Shown: piece by piece, positions 12,408-45,427 of the stretch
Layout: each line of letters starts with the position of its first letter
Numbering within the stretch: position 1 is the stretch's first letter
From: Octopus vulgaris
Lineage: Eukaryota
NCBI GenBank assembly: GCA_951406725.2
Contig: OX597828.1
Location: 60,884,001-60,948,000 of the forward strand
Direction of reading: 5' to 3'
Length of the DNA: 64,000 nt
Translations under genes and position numbers: made by a program
Notes under the pieces: model-generated
What the model was told of the DNA's origin: nothing
Seen by the model: only the letters and a program-made list of their open reading frames with translations
The model's database searches: none

Positions 12408-12958
12408 TATAATAAAAAATAAGCAACAAGAATGATTCCGGTAATTTGGTACAATTGTATAAATAAGTGATAGTTTTGTTTCCCTTACCCTTTGTAAAAG
12501 AATTTAATGATCTCTCGACACTGACCTAGTTTACTTCTCACCACATAGAAAAATTGGCTTTTTGTTTAGTGACAACCTGAATTCCTTTATGGAATTCTGA
12601 ATTCCTCCTCTTTCTACAACCAACTTGAATTCCTTTTATGGTATTCTAAAACCTTCCCTTACCCTCATTCCTAAAACTAAAAAATTCGTATAGCAGTCAG
12701 TTGCAAGCAGAGTTTTGGTCAGTTAGCATCTGAACCTCATATGTTCCTAAAATTTATATCTGCATCTTTATCTGTATATTTACCTTCCCTAAAATGTTAC
12801 TACTTGATTTGAAAGCTTTTATATTATTGGAAAACCTATATAAATTGACTGAAGATTACTCAGCATCTTAAATATTTACAGCTTTTAATAAAATGTTGTA
12901 GTATGAAACAATTGTACCAAATTACCGGAATCATTCTTGCTGCTTATTTTTGATTATA
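12408..12958. mobile_element. About 550-bp element bounded by 51-bp inverted repeats, containing an HHR motif (PLE pseudo-LTR-like)
   Basis: 12408-12458 is the reverse complement of 12908-12958 with about 2 mismatches. The right end runs into (TA)n. Confidence 0.7.
12845..12920 (+). ncRNA. Degenerate hammerhead motif downstream of the Wnt16 stop codon
   Basis: UUGA-CUGAAGA-U-UACUCAGCAU...AUGUUGUAGUA-U-GAAAC-AAUU-GUA^-CCAA. The first stem I pair is an A.C mismatch. Confidence 0.55.
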
Positions 12959-13580
12959 TATATATATATATATATATATATATATATATATATATATATA
13001 TATATATATATATATATATATTCGTGTATAAGTACATACAAGCACTCTCATGCACGCACACATTCACATACACACATATATGTTATTACACCGGTTGCAG
13101 AATAAGAAACTATGGTCAAGACAGTCGGTAGGCGGTGTATGTATCTGGCTGGAATAGAATGACGTTCTTGTATGCCGGATGGATCATGACTCAGAAGGAA
13201 AATTCCAACCCTTCTGTAAATTGTAAGAGGTGACATCACTCTAAAATAATTGGAATTAATTGGAAATAACTGGATGAAAAAGTTGATACTAACGACTGAG
13301 TTGAACAAGATATTAGAGGAGCAGACATAGGCTCTTGGTGAATAGAGGCAAGAGTGGGAGGAGGTGGGTGAAAGAAAAGGTGTGGAGCGTGTAGGTTAAA
13401 AGGTGGTGAACGATATTAGAATGCATGGTGCTACACAATGTGTAAAGTATAAAAATGTAAACTTATTAAATACATTATAAAATACATAAAACCAAGAAAT
13501 CGGACCAAGGCTCGAATGTTCTGGATGATTATTCGCTGAGAATGTTTAGATAGTAAAGGTTTTGGTATTAGCTGCATGTA

Positions 13581-14070
13581 CGGGATGTCCCAGAATCTAT
13601 GTCAATGAAATCGGGCAAATTAAAATAAAATTGACAGAATGTATTGTTTATTACTTATTATGATACCAAAATAAATAGATTTATAAATCTTAGCTCAAAA
13701 CTTAGTTGAAAATTTTTAACATGTGCTCCGTCCCTGTGAATTTCCAATCATACCGTTGCAAAACACATTTTGACACTGCTAACTGAATGCGTTCTTTCAG
13801 TTCACCTAAACTATTGCTCCATCTTGGAGATGGAGGTAGAGGAAATGATTGTAGCCAAATTGGAAAAAGTTGTTGTGGACAGATAAGCGGGATCCAACAG
13901 CGATGAAAATAACATTATCAAAAAATTATCAAAATTATCAAATTATAAGCAAAATTAAAAATTTATACACTTTTAACACGTATTAAACATATATAAAAGT
14001 ATTTAACACATATTAAACATAAATAAAAGTGAGTTTCACTGAAATAGATCGTTAACTCTGAGACACCCTG
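13581..14070. mobile_element. Tc1/mariner-type non-autonomous element
   Basis: ta|cgggatgtcccagaat ... actctgagacaccctg|ta: degenerate CAGGGTGTCCCA TIRs with TA on both flanks. Confidence 0.6.
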
Positions 14071-14124
14071 TACAATGGGTTACGTGGGTATCTGTACCTT
14101 ACCTAGATTTTAAAATATATTTCT

Positions 14125-14841
14125 AAGCTTAAGAAACCTACATGTGAGCAAAAAGTGTCATTTTGAAGTGTGTATCATGCCGCGAAAAAGTCATGTTAGC
14201 TTTGAGTGCGACCAGCAACTGGTGAGGATTAGAAACAGAGCCTGATATCCTTACTAGACCAATCCCAAGTATTTGATTGGAATATCTAAGTTGAGATCAT
14301 TGGAAGGTACAGTATTCATGTGTGTCAGGAAGCCTTACTAGTTGCCACTCTGCCATTGGAGGGCGTGAAAAAGAAATACCACCGTGTTGTAGATCTCAGC
14401 ATTAGATACTTCAACGATTCTTCCAAGATATGAGAAGGCAAGCTTCTTATATCTTTCCAATACATTTCAAAGTAATTTCAATACATTTCGAAAGGTGTAA
14501 CATTGCGACACCATAGAAAATCATGTGAAAATGCTGAGAAAATTGTGGACGCGGTGAAAGGGATAAGTGGGTATGGAAATATTTAAGTAAACACTGGATC
14601 TGATACACTGTAGGCTAGCGCTTGTCTCCTCTTATTCAAACGGCAGAACAGATTCATGTGACTATCCCAGACATAGGATCGAAAATCAACCCTTGCAGTG
14701 AATTCATCTTCCATATCCAGGCAAACACCCAGGTGGGTCGAGTGAAAATGTCAGATTCGCTGCACTTGAGCCTATTTTGTGGCATGACATAATTTACACA
14801 TTTGGTGACACTTTTTGCTCACATATAGATTTCTGAAACTT
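14125..14841. mobile_element. Old element with about 65-bp inverted termini
   Basis: taagcttaagaaacctacatgtgagcaaaaagtgtca... matches the reverse complement of ...tgacactttttgctcacatatagatttctgaaactta. Confidence 0.5.
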
Positions 14842-15440
14842 ATTCGATCAACAATCAGACTGAAGCCTAATAACCTTGTGATCGATTGTACATACATCTA
14901 ACACCTGACTGGGTTTTCAAACCTGTATTGAAGACTGATTAACGTACTGTATACTTATGCGGTTGTTGCCATCTAAACGAACAATCATCTCAAATATTCT
15001 AGCCTTGGTGCAATAATTCGATGTTATAATATTTTATGGATTCTTTGATATATTTAGTATTTTTATGTTTAGGATACTGTATTTATTATGTTGTGTTATA
15101 CATTGAAATATCATATCCCGATGCATTCTCTGGTATTCCCTAGCATCTTTCTCTTCAATCTCTTTCCCCACCTTACTCAACTGAGTATATCTACTCCCAA
15201 AAGTTCATGTTCCAGATGGAAACAAAAGCTGGTCAATTTTTTCATGTGAGTCATGATCCACTCTTCTCAGATGTGATTTGAGTTTGTGCCCAGCCATCAA
15301 GATACTTGTGTTTATTCGCTATCTTGGACATCGTTGTTTATTCATCACTCAGTCAGGGGTCTGATTGATATGCTGGAAATTGGGGAAACTCCAAAGTAAC
15401 AGTCAATTGTACTAATATGGAATAATAAGTTATTCTACAC

Positions 15441-43737: not shown

Positions 43738-44190
43738 TTTATTCTTTCACTTGTTCCAGTCATTCGACTGCGGCCATGCTGGATTACCGCCTTTCTAGTC
43801 GAACAAAACAACCGCAAGATTTATTCTTTGTAAGCCTAGTACATATTCTATCGGTATATTTTGCCAAACCGCTAAGTTACGGGGACGTAAATCCACCAAC
43901 ATTGGTTGTCAAGCGATGGTGGGGAGGGGAACAAACACAGATACACAATACATACATACATAATACATACATATATGTATATATATATATATACATATAT
44001 ATATATATATATACATATATATATATATATATATATGCGATGGGCTTCTTTCAGTTTCCGTCTACCAAATCCACTCATGAGGCTTTGGTCGGCTCTACGC
44101 TACAATAGAAGACACTCGCTCAAGGTTCCACGCAGTGGAACTGAACCTGGAACCATGTGCTTGCGAAGCAAGCTTCTTACCAGACAGCCA
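43738..44190 (-). mobile_element. SINE family A copy
   Basis: Family A match. Confidence 0.82.
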
Positions 44191-44412
44191 ATTAGTATGG
44201 TATTTTTTATTTTTCATTTTATAACGTAAATTAATTATTCAGTGACGTCGCTATTGGTTGAATGAATGATTTAGTTGAATTTGATTTAGGCGTTCCTTCT
44301 TTTGTTGGCGTTTATTAACAGCTCAAATTTTTTCAGATGTTCAGTTGGAATTTCACCAATTTGGATTACCTTGATAATATTGTGTTGACCCATTTTTCGA
44401 AGATATTAATTC

Positions 44413-44970
44413 TAATATGGGTGACCCATATGGGACGATGCTACTGTGGTTTATAGCCATAGGAAGACATCTCCCCAAGCTGGCTAACGGCACACTGTCT
44501 GTGTCCGGTCAGTATATAAGAAGGGAAATCAACGTTCCTATCTCTAGTCTTACGTGATACACACGGACCCGGGTTTCTGAGTAGTAACACGTCATCGGAA
44601 AAAGCATATAGTATTTTGCGTTTGGAATCAGTTCTCCTCCCTAACTGATGATTGTCACACGCTGATGACGGGTTACTACTCAGAAACCCGGGTCCATGTG
44701 AATCATGTAAGGCTAGAGATGGGAACGATGATTTCCCTTCGCATATACTGATCGGACGCATACAGTGTGTCGTTAGCCAGCTGGAGGCGATGTCTTCCTG
44801 GGGCTATAAACTACAGTAGCATGGTCCCATATGGGTCAGCCATATTTAGGTGGCAAATATACGTCACGATGTCGTGCTGCTACTGTTTACATCTCGCTCA
44901 GAGATTTATTATTGCTTATTAATTTTAATAATATTGATCATATGTATATAAATACATACATACATACATA
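44413..44970 (+). mobile_element. HHR-bearing element with about 185-bp inverted arms (44413-44598 / 44662-44848)
   Basis: The arms align as reverse complements. The 3' part (44781-44965) is duplicated at 42881-43065. Confidence 0.8.
44656..44700 (+). ncRNA. Type I hammerhead motif, with a truncated inverted copy at 44560-44598 (-)
   Basis: CACACG-CUGAUGA-C-GGGU uacu ACUC-A-GAAA-CCCGGG-UC^-CAUGUG. The inverted copy has CGUGUG, which pairs perfectly with CACACG. C10.1.A11.1 mismatch in both copies. Confidence 0.62.
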
Positions 44971-45111
44971 CATACACACACACACACACACACACATATA
45001 TATATATATATGTATATATATATGTATGTATGTATGTATATATATGTATATATGTATATATATATATATATATATATATATATATATATATATATATATA
45101 TATATATTATT

Positions 45112-45427
45112 GTTATCGCCATACTAATATGGCATTCTTATAAAAATAAGAATAAAGCTGTCCGCTTATTAGCTCCATGAGGCCATCGCCTTAAGTTAGC
45201 TATTTGATACACAAACTGTATCCATATAACCTTCGAACAAGGGAGGTCAGTCGCTCCACACTACTTGACCGGCAGCTACAGACGCGTTTCGGGGTATTGC
45301 CCCTTTTCAATGCAGCGTAGCCAGACCAGTATCAAATAGCTAACTTAAGGCGATGGCCTCATGGAGCTAATAAGCGGACAGCTTTATTCTTATTTTTATA
45401 AGAATGCCATATTAGTATGGCGATAAC
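45112..45427. repeat. Perfect 99-bp inverted repeat (45112-45210 / 45329-45427) with an HHR in the 118-bp spacer
   Basis: Checked base by base; no mismatch found between the arms. Confidence 0.95.
45275..45316 (-). ncRNA. Minimal type I hammerhead ribozyme with U3-A8 core variant
   Basis: Minus strand reads GCUGCA-UUGAAAA-GGGG caaua CCCC-GAAA-CGCG-UC^-UGUAGC. Stem I 6 bp, stem II 4 G-C bp, palindromic stem III, predicted cleavage between 45281 and 45280. Confidence 0.8.

What the first reader, a model, noticed from the sequence alone, without database searches (positions are those of the whole stretch)
12408..45427. Dispersed set of non-coding elements carrying minimal hammerhead ribozymes with palindromic stem III (retrozyme / Penelope pLTR-like system)
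Seen: six loci (12845+, 23725-, 24291+, 32077-, 44656+, 45275-) fold into type I HHRs, plus two weaker remnants (33976+, about 39640+). At least five unrelated sequence backgrounds are involved, none with an ORF, and most sit next to (TA)n/(CA)n. In five, stem III is a self-complementary palindrome (ACAAUUGU twice, ACGUACGU, ACCCGGGU, ACGCGU); the sixth has an imperfect one. Established: Penelope-like elements carry minimal HHRs in their pseudo-LTRs that cleave as dimers through such palindromes, and retrozymes are non-autonomous HHR retroelements. PLE RT/GIY-YIG relics are present here (8.5, 26.2-27.5, 35.6, 49.2 kb). Inference: about one HHR per 10 kb suggests a very large, diverse HHR-bearing non-autonomous PLE/retrozyme population in this genome. 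I cannot confirm whether it has been described.
Basis: partly seen in the sequence, partly recalled or inferred. Interest (0 to 1): 0.85.

Follow-up and report, generated by a model that had tools for sequence, protein, structure and literature searches.

The report
Hammerhead retrozymes carrying Penelope insertion signature
This repeat-rich animal genome is scattered with hammerhead motifs (predicted self-cutting RNAs) that belong partly to Penelope-type jumping genes and partly to small non-coding repeats whose insertions end exactly as Penelope insertions do, so the small repeats are likely copied into the genome by the Penelope enzyme: a known kind of element, with unusually direct evidence for its helper.

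Summary
Confirmed and refined. All six motifs exist (palindromic descriptor: 6 hits vs 0.11 in shuffles). I found two more (22676+, 33035-). The 33976 'remnant' is a real family mis-registered (core at 33903). 39640 is not a hammerhead. Each of the nine motifs lies in a multi-copy repeat (eight families).

'None with an ORF' is wrong: three families are 3' ends of Hydra-clade Penelope-like elements (PLEs), and 23769- ends the window's own PLE relic. Three others (units about 356, 362 and 490 nt) are non-coding, head-to-tail retrozyme-like repeats. Genome-wide density is about 1 per 35-60 kb, not 1 per 10 kb.

New detail: all seven families examined end at two fixed internal sites, not at the ribozyme cut, usually next to (TA)n. 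Two-armed inverted insertions of the 362-nt family use one site per arm in 41 of 42 resolvable cases, as the autonomous PLE does (14 of 14). This is the 'tail' signature published as PLE-specific, so PLE mobilisation of retrozymes, so far inferred from co-occurrence and homology, is likely. Cleavage, circles and expression are untested. The scan noted PLE hammerheads on other DNA before.

The parts
12312..12955 (+). Family B2 two-armed insertion. Plus arm carries a hammerhead (core 12849-12855, 49-nt stem II, palindrome ACAAUUGU, predicted cut after 12916; A.C mismatch at the base of stem I) and ends in (TA)n. Inverted arm about 12458 to 12312 carries the longer 'tail' end.
   Evidence: 75% like family B1 over 81 nt
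22500..22797 (+). Family F repeat end with a U3-A8 hammerhead (core 22676-22682, palindrome AGCGCU, predicted cut after 22707). Coding status unknown; left boundary approximate.
23720..27541 (-). 5'-truncated Hydra-clade PLE (family E): RT-EN ORF remnant, microsatellite-rich 3' region of about 2.5 kb, terminal hammerhead, then (TA)n. Continuity through 24900-25890 is inferred, because the stretch is microsatellite-like and the ORF and terminal part best match different subfamilies.
26256..27541 (-). Hydra-type RT and GIY-YIG endonuclease ORF remnant in two frames (87% and 93% identical to the 722-aa open frame of L148)
23725..23775 (-). Family E hammerhead (core 23769-23763, 6-bp stem I, stem III ACAG/CUGU with an 8-nt loop in the family; this copy has one stem III change; predicted cut after 23731)
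24291..24406 (+). Family B1 copy nested in a microsatellite of the family E 3' region. It is 5'-truncated two bases before the core (24293-24299), so stem I is cut to 2 bp; 60-nt stem II, ACAAUUGU, predicted cut after 24371.
31947..32740 (-). Family D: truncated AT-rich 3' end of a Hydra-like PLE, with a hammerhead (core 32173-32167, 75-nt stem II, ACGUACGU, predicted cut after 32080); 5' boundary approximate
32857..33147 (-). Family G retrozyme-like repeat (unit about 480-505 nt) with a hammerhead (core 33035-33029, 5-bp stem III, predicted cut after 32982), ending in (TA)n.
33886..34102 (+). Family H repeat end: core at 33903-33909 (G8A in this copy, likely inactive), stem II of about 100 nt, palindrome ACAGCUGU, predicted cut after 34014.
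44414..44916 (+). Family A retrozyme-like repeat (unit about 354-361 nt), two-armed. Plus arm 44608-44916 carries a hammerhead (core 44662-44668, ACCCGGGU, predicted cut after 44694); inverted arm 44596 to 44414.
45106..45496 (-). Family C retrozyme (unit 362/363 nt), two-armed tail-out insertion in (TA)n. Minus arm 45331 to 45106 carries the U3-A8 hammerhead (core 45310-45304, ACGCGU, predicted cut after 45281) and ends at unit position about 174; plus arm 45329-45496 ends at about 237.
35624..36060 (+). Decayed Hydra-like GIY-YIG endonuclease relic
   Evidence: tblastn E 1e-4
8335..8709 (+). GIY-YIG relic (Pfam PF01541 E 8.5e-4, below the gathering score); clade not determined

Best explanation
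The nine motifs are type I hammerhead folds at the ends of eight retroelement families, three of them truncated Hydra-clade Penelope-like elements and three short non-coding head-to-tail repeats (retrozymes) that are likely copied in trans by a Penelope-type protein. SHOWN: the repeats end at two fixed internal sites 35-115 nt apart, downstream of and never at the predicted ribozyme cut, usually against (TA)n; in two-armed inverted insertions one arm ends at each site; family C arms run through the ribozyme for up to 5.5 units; and the two arms are as alike as neighbouring units of one arm. INFERRED: a PLE RT/GIY-YIG protein nicks both strands of a (TA)n tract; each 3' end primes reverse transcription at one of the two internal sites of one uncleaved multimeric or circular RNA; and the two 5'-truncated cDNAs join head to head. 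INFERRED: the hammerheads cut multimeric transcripts, with palindromic stem III pairing between two copies for A, B, C, D, F and H and possible monomer activity for E and G, giving monomers that may circularise; most solitary genomic copies would be inert.
For: Motifs far above chance. Stem covariation in family G: 3 pairs with changes on both sides, 95% of cells paired vs 24-45% for slid controls, 20 sequences. The family E hammerhead flanks a 700-aa RT-EN frame on both sides at 5.2-5.7 kb spacing in L173, L180, L181 and L183. Hydra-like RT/EN fragments lie 1.3-1.5 kb upstream of the B hammerhead in L179 and L184, and an EN C-terminus 2.2 kb upstream of D in L177 (E 2e-6). Family C: 362/363-nt spacing in 10 of 30 loci, longest ATG ORF 38 aa, circular fold z -5.6, 892 exact hammerhead copies vs 0 control. 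Two 3' ends (nt after the cut): A about 175/222, B 35/150, C 173/236, D 170/245, E 23/96, F 62/98, G 147/252. One end of each kind per two-armed insertion: C 20 of 21 (hand tally) and 21 of 21 resolvable in 40 independent loci (p 5e-7); E 14 of 14; B 11 of 11; A 9 of 10; G 4 of 5 (hand tallies). Divergence between arms of one insertion 0.76%, between units of one arm 0.78%, between loci 1.84%. PMC11167929 shows in vitro that a PLE RT initiates at two adjacent internal sites matching the genomic tail, and calls this unique to PLEs.
Against: No cleavage, circle or strand-resolved RNA was shown. The A, C and G stretches tested showed no meaningful homology to the PLE ends B, D and E, so no specific helper is identified; Naiads also insert in (TA)n with tails and inversions (PMC8557442). 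In PMC11167929 hammerhead mutants did not affect insertion, and no reads ended at the cut site. In the 2026 preprint 8 of 9 predicted frog retrozymes did not cleave. The MFE folds of the isolated window copies mostly do not form the hammerhead junction. Only C, D and G window copies match their family's common form; B1, B2, A, E and H carry lesions. Gene conversion could also make arms alike. The B tally is biased because the query fixed one arm's end.
Confidence: 0.78

Rival explanations
1. A, C and G are not independent retrozymes but terminal pieces (solo pseudo-LTRs) or internally deleted derivatives of autonomous PLEs not yet located, moved passively or amplified locally as satellites.
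For: B, D and E looked non-coding until 1.3-3 kb were walked upstream. A and G show partial tandems in only 8 of 30 and 6 of 20 loci, with almost no complete hammerhead-to-hammerhead dimers. The 2026 preprint finds retrozymes homologous to pLTRs.
Against: Family C arms are pure repeats of one 362-nt unit for up to 2,000 nt, and 38 of 67 arms exceed one unit. Copies are dispersed over many chromosomes with fresh (TA)n junctions. Upstream sequence in A and G wraps round to the downstream sequence at a fixed offset.
Confidence: 0.2
2. The short repeats are mobilised as proposed, but the hammerhead is a passenger: the template is an uncleaved multimeric transcript, no circle forms, and the palindromes no longer serve cleavage.
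For: Arms read through the cut site and 3' ends never coincide with it. Insertion in vitro did not need cleavage (PMC11167929). Naiads proliferate without canonical hammerheads (PMC8557442).
Against: Core plus palindrome is kept across at least 11 different palindromes and many unrelated families. Compensatory changes occur in G. 6 of 67 arm 5' ends fall within 8 nt of the cut site (about 1.5 expected if uniform; weak, since other hot spots are larger).
Confidence: 0.3
3. The motifs are chance folds in AT-rich repetitive DNA.
For: A relaxed descriptor yields about 6 chance hits per 800 kb. 39640 and probably +1061 are such chance hits.
Against: 0 of 200 shuffles reach the observed count. There is an 11.6-fold excess over the reversed pattern, and family-level conservation.
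Confidence: 0.02

Closest known systems
Non-LTR retrozymes of animals (Cervera & de la Pena 2020, PMC7229834; mussel repeats about 350-390 bp)
   Same: Non-coding head-to-tail repeats with one type I hammerhead per unit; families C and A fall in the 150-450 bp range; self-paired circular fold predicted for C.
   Different: Here mostly 1-2 units dispersed in (TA)n as two-armed inverted insertions with a one-sided tail, which the sections I read do not describe. C has a U3-A8 core. G (about 490 nt) is slightly longer. RNA and circles are not shown.
Hydra clade of Penelope-like elements (Craig et al. 2021, PMC8557442; includes Hydra-1_Obim with a hammerhead)
   Same: C-terminal GIY-YIG; RWR (for RWK), DKT, CxCx5C, CxxC and CxH motifs in L148; (TA)n insertion; hammerhead near the 3' end.
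   Different: Published Hydra elements are mostly under 3 kb. Family E is 5.2-5.7 kb with a 2.5-3.5 kb microsatellite-rich 3' region, and its hammerhead differs from the listed Hydra-1_Obim one. No tree was built.
PLE hammerheads, min-HHR and small-palindromic-helix-III variants (Cervera & de la Pena 2014, PMC4209133)
   Same: CUGANGA/GAAA core, U3-A8 variant, extra or mismatched base at the foot of stem II, palindromic helix III, many families per genome, mostly solitary copies.
   Different: Palindromes here are 6-8 nt rather than absent or 2-4 nt; stem II is 49-100 nt in B, D and H; E and G have closed stem III hairpins.
Poseidon element of Anolis, two-site internal initiation (Frangieh et al. 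2024, PMC11167929)
   Same: Two adjacent internal initiation sites downstream of the hammerhead, AT-rich targets, both strands extended, uncleaved template.
   Different: Tails here are 35-115 nt (30-40 published), occur on non-coding repeats, and are almost strictly one per arm; the family C sites are TAT-rich and could pair with the target, unlike the AC-rich non-homologous site reported.

Membership tests
Type I hammerhead ribozyme | CUGANGA (or U3-A8) ... GAAA ... UH core with three stems | tested here: met
   8 window motifs; core intact in 30/30 B, 30/30 C, 25/25 E, 20/25 D, 17/20 G, 13/20 F and 17/30 A fetched copies; not met for 39640 or for the window copy of H (G8A)
Type I hammerhead ribozyme | Stem covariation | tested here: met
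   Family G, 20 sequences, 3 pairs changed on both sides (related sequences, so the shuffle counts are not probabilities); palindrome varies across families. B and C were not run through this test; their copies are near-identical.
Type I hammerhead ribozyme | Self-cleavage at the predicted site | not testable with these tools
   needs in vitro transcription
Dimer-type (min/palindromic) PLE hammerhead | Self-complementary stem III too weak for a monomer | tested here: met
   B1, B2, D, A, C, F: no hairpin alone, self-duplex -6.4 to -14.9 kcal/mol; not met for E and G (0/25 and 0/20 perfect palindromes)
Hydra-clade PLE (families E, B, D) | Single ORF with RT then C-terminal GIY-YIG; RWK-like, DKT, CxCx5C, CxxC and CxH motifs | tested here: met
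   Read by eye in the 722-aa frame of L148 against the paper's list; B and D have only fragments; Pfam found no RT or GIY-YIG in L148 and only a sub-threshold GIY-YIG in L184
Hydra-clade PLE (families E, B, D) | Hammerhead-bearing pseudo-LTRs flanking the ORF | tested here: met
   E: L173, L180, L181, L183; for B and D only the 3' copy was seen
Hydra-clade PLE (families E, B, D) | Phylogenetic placement of the RT | not tested
   no reference sequences were extracted for a tree
PLE-type integration | 5' truncation, inverted 5' copy, optional one-sided tail, microsatellite target | tested here: met
Non-LTR retrozyme (families C, A, G) | Non-coding tandem unit of about 150-450 bp with one hammerhead per unit | tested here: met
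   C: 362/363 nt, 10 of 30 loci with at least 2 same-strand hammerheads; A and G mostly partial tandems; G unit about 490 nt
Non-LTR retrozyme (families C, A, G) | Expressed as linear and circular RNA | tested here: inconclusive
   contigs of three runs only guessed to be RNA cover the whole C unit and its head-to-tail joint, but so does the large unlabelled (probably DNA) run
Non-LTR retrozyme (families C, A, G) | Homology to a PLE pseudo-LTR (2026 preprint) | tested here: inconclusive
   no meaningful match to the three PLE ends in hand; other PLE families were not collected

The most novel reading that the evidence does not exclude
A young 362-nt U3-A8 hammerhead circle is reverse-transcribed in trans by a dimeric Penelope-type protein that primes each nicked strand of a (TA)n target at its own fixed internal site on one RNA circle. 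This would leave tail-out inverted rolling-circle insertions and be direct genomic proof that animal retrozymes use the PLE machinery, with a strict one-site-per-strand rule not yet stated for PLEs.
Probability: 0.45. Interest if true: 0.65.

Novelty: new member of a known kind. Interest (0 to 1): 0.42.

Why it matters
Which enzyme mobilises animal retrozymes, and from what template, is stated as open in PMC7229834, PMC7761336 and the 2026 preprint, which rely on co-occurrence and homology. A PLE-specific integration signature on a non-coding repeat with 892 identical hammerhead copies is a more direct argument. The genome also offers a ready test pair: long open Hydra frames (L148, L159) and a defined 362-nt RNA with two predicted start sites. 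The estimated 50,000-80,000 motifs (extrapolated from 800 kb) would put this genome among the hammerhead-richest in the papers I read (axolotl 126,000 in a roughly tenfold larger genome). The ribozymes and element classes themselves are known.

Tried and rejected
Rfam scan: only microsatellite-driven miRNA-type noise; no hammerhead family among the 150 of 209 rows shown.

39640+: single copy, no GAAA; rejected. +1061: relaxed-descriptor hit, treated as chance and not followed. 28029- and 38134-: CUGANGA followed by a hairpin but no GAAA; not followed (no search left).

Idea that 23769- lost part of stem I by deletion: rejected, since all 25 fetched copies share the form. Idea that the two arms come from two random RNA molecules held by the palindrome: not supported, since arms are as alike as tandem units. 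A splice-acceptor reading of the AG before the B core: not tested.

One search timed out. One search's end mapping was spoiled by microsatellites and replaced.

Expression: no RNA holder listed on record; the laid contigs cannot show strand, ends or circles. Hydra hits near A and G loci were sporadic, at inconsistent places or orientations, and were not counted as linkage. L178 gave no EN match upstream of D (another insertion interrupts it).

Literature: searches for octopus/cephalopod plus hammerhead or retrozyme and for retrozyme plus tail, inversion or target site found no description of these families or of tails on retrozymes. The library lacks most subscription papers, bioRxiv supplements are closed, and one supplement of PMC4209133 could not be searched; Repbase and Dfam could not be checked. 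No structure, complex or protein-database searches were run.
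Full report
SETTING. The window is 36.8% GC and microsatellite-rich and lies on contig C15 of a 2.8-Gb assembly of 227 contigs. It holds a Wnt exon and many transposon relics.

OBSERVATION. A type I descriptor (CUGANGA or UUGANAA, stem II up to 110 nt with a free first pair, GAAA, stem III, UH, stem I) finds 6 palindromic-stem-III motifs vs 0.11 in 200 local shuffles, and 8 vs 0.52 when relaxed. 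The '33976 remnant' belongs to a repeat with 42 scored matches. Its real core is at 33903, with a 100-nt stem II; 5 of the 8 fetched loci whose printed arm reaches the core have the canonical box, while the window copy and two others have G8A. 39640 is single-copy and lacks GAAA.

DENSITY. The pattern CTGANGAN{10,30}GAAACNNNNGT has 16,085 matches vs 1,383 for its reversed control; I counted by hand 65 perfect palindromes among the first 100 listed, of 11 kinds, against about 6 expected. In 80 evenly spaced 10-kb samples the descriptors gave 15 and 30 hits vs 1.2 and 6.25 in 12 shuffles. That is about one motif per 35-60 kb, so the window is 3-5 times richer than average.

FAMILIES. Own-genome searches returned the 40 best-scored of 379-2,236 candidates per family; I fetched 12-30 loci each, so the samples lean toward copies most like the window's.

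Coding families. E: the same hammerhead type lies on both sides of a 700-aa RT-GIY-YIG frame at 5.2-5.7 kb spacing. The frame has the motifs listed for the Hydra clade. In the window, the ORF remnant 27541-26256, a microsatellite-rich 3' region and the 23769 hammerhead lie in order on one strand, with a B copy nested in the opposite orientation; ORF and end match different subfamilies best, so a chimera is not excluded. B: Hydra-like RT/EN fragments lie upstream in 2 loci (L179, L184). D: a 2.2-kb AT-rich region leads to an EN C-terminus in 1 of 2 extended loci.

Non-coding families. C: 362/363-nt head-to-tail units (10 of 30 loci with same-strand pairs), no ORF over 38 aa, circular fold z -5.6, 892 exact copies of its 30-nt hammerhead. 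A and G wrap round at 354-361 nt (8 of 30) and 477-504 nt (6 of 20). F and H are unresolved. G shows compensatory changes in stems I and II.

INSERTION SIGNATURE. In each of the seven families mapped (H was not), 3' ends cluster at two sites downstream of the predicted cut, usually followed by (TA)n. Many insertions have two arms joined head to head with their 3' ends outward. For C, 21 of 28 distinct loci were two-armed and 20 had one end of each kind (hand tally). In 40 further loci taken in listing order from the exact-match scan, 25 adjacent arm pairs were found: 21 discordant, 0 concordant, and 4 with one end outside both sites. Of the other loci, 13 were single-armed, one had a 134-nt gap and one had same-direction pieces. 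E gave 14 of 14 (one more ambiguous at an assembly gap); B 11 of 11 (one arm fixed by the query); A 9 discordant, 1 concordant, 6 eroded; G 4 of 5; F 2 of 2 (3 unresolved); D 1 of 1 (hand tallies). 38 of 67 C arms exceed one unit, up to 2,000 nt. Arms of one insertion differ by 0.76%, consecutive units by 0.78%, and different loci by 1.84%. This fits one template molecule or one source locus, though conversion could mimic it.

MECHANISM. Shown: sequence motifs, family structure, end positions and pairing. From the literature: a purified Poseidon PLE nicks and extends both strands of AT-rich DNA, starts at two adjacent internal RNA sites that match the genomic tail, is predicted to be a dimer, and does not need hammerhead cleavage for insertion; its hammerhead cleaved only with protein (PMC11167929). 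The tail sits on one of the inverted pLTRs (PMC3846280), and Hydra elements insert in (TA)n (PMC8557442). Inferred: PLE protein acts in trans on the short RNAs, one strand priming at each site, on an uncleaved multimer or circle; hammerheads process multimers, most of them as dimers. Against: no activity data; no helper identified; MFE folds of isolated copies rarely give the active junction; 8 of 9 predicted frog retrozymes were inactive in the preprint; five of the nine window copies carry visible lesions. Contigs from three runs only guessed to be RNA cover the C unit and its joint, as does a probable DNA run; this is no evidence of expression.

COMPARISON AND NOVELTY. E, B and D work like Hydra-clade PLE ends, and E meets the motif and pLTR tests. 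C meets the sequence definition of a non-LTR retrozyme; A and G meet it partly. All classes are published, so this is a new member of a known kind. What I did not find in print (searches; term look-ups) is a cephalopod retrozyme description or the PLE tail on retrozyme insertions.

PAPERS SEEN. PMC4209133: parts 1-2 of 4 and a supplement term search (one file not searchable). PMC7229834: parts 2-4 of 6 and passages. bioRxiv 10.64898/2026.07.22.740005: parts 1-3 of 5 and passages (supplements closed). PMC8557442: passages, the Hydra section, and supplement part 2 of 59. PMC11167929: parts 1-2 of 4. PMC3846280 and PMC7761336: passages. Others: search listings only. Unseen supplements or repeat databases may already hold these families.

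VERDICT. Real, largely known biology with one useful new piece of evidence. Interest 0.42.

Noticed in passing
window 11295-11816 (+): Last coding exon of a Wnt gene (Pfam wnt E 2e-57). The B2 hammerhead element lies about 500-1,100 nt downstream on the sense strand, possibly in or near its 3' UTR; this copy has a mismatch at the base of stem I.
   Followed up: no
   Followed up: partly
window 33612-33990 and 34251-34627: A 350-nt 100% inverted duplication carrying a 122-aa frame without a Pfam hit (transposase-like by recall) plus the start of the family H element; the arms point tail-inward, unlike the PLE pattern.
   Followed up: partly
window 28029 (-) and 38134 (-): Two related repeat copies with CUGANGA, a hairpin and UGUC but no GAAA; possibly a degenerate or variant hammerhead family.
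   Followed up: no
L184:4083-5500; L305: Another retrozyme-like family: 535-nt tandem unit, hammerhead with ACAAUUGU and a 51-nt stem II, two-armed.
   Followed up: no
L173:1684-1889; L181:3023-3214; L185:1893-2105: Tiny two-armed insertions (about 200 nt) made only of the family E hammerhead end, with the 23/96 tail pair.
   Followed up: partly
L184:8970-10000; L122: Hydra-like ORFs with long asparagine-rich inserts between RT and EN, as described for rotifer Penelope in PMC3846280.
   Followed up: no
window 19410-19856 (-), 42881-43015 (+), 43572-43610 (+): Further fragments of families F, A and C that did not score as hammerheads.
   Followed up: partly
family C arms, L319-L358: 5' ends cluster at unit positions about 38-52, beside a predicted stem, and weakly at 0-7, the predicted cut site.
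   Followed up: partly
window 15807-16430 (-), 29973-30458 (-), 48017-48460 (-): MULE-like, DDE_3-like and zinc-knuckle relics, all below Pfam cut-offs.
   Followed up: no
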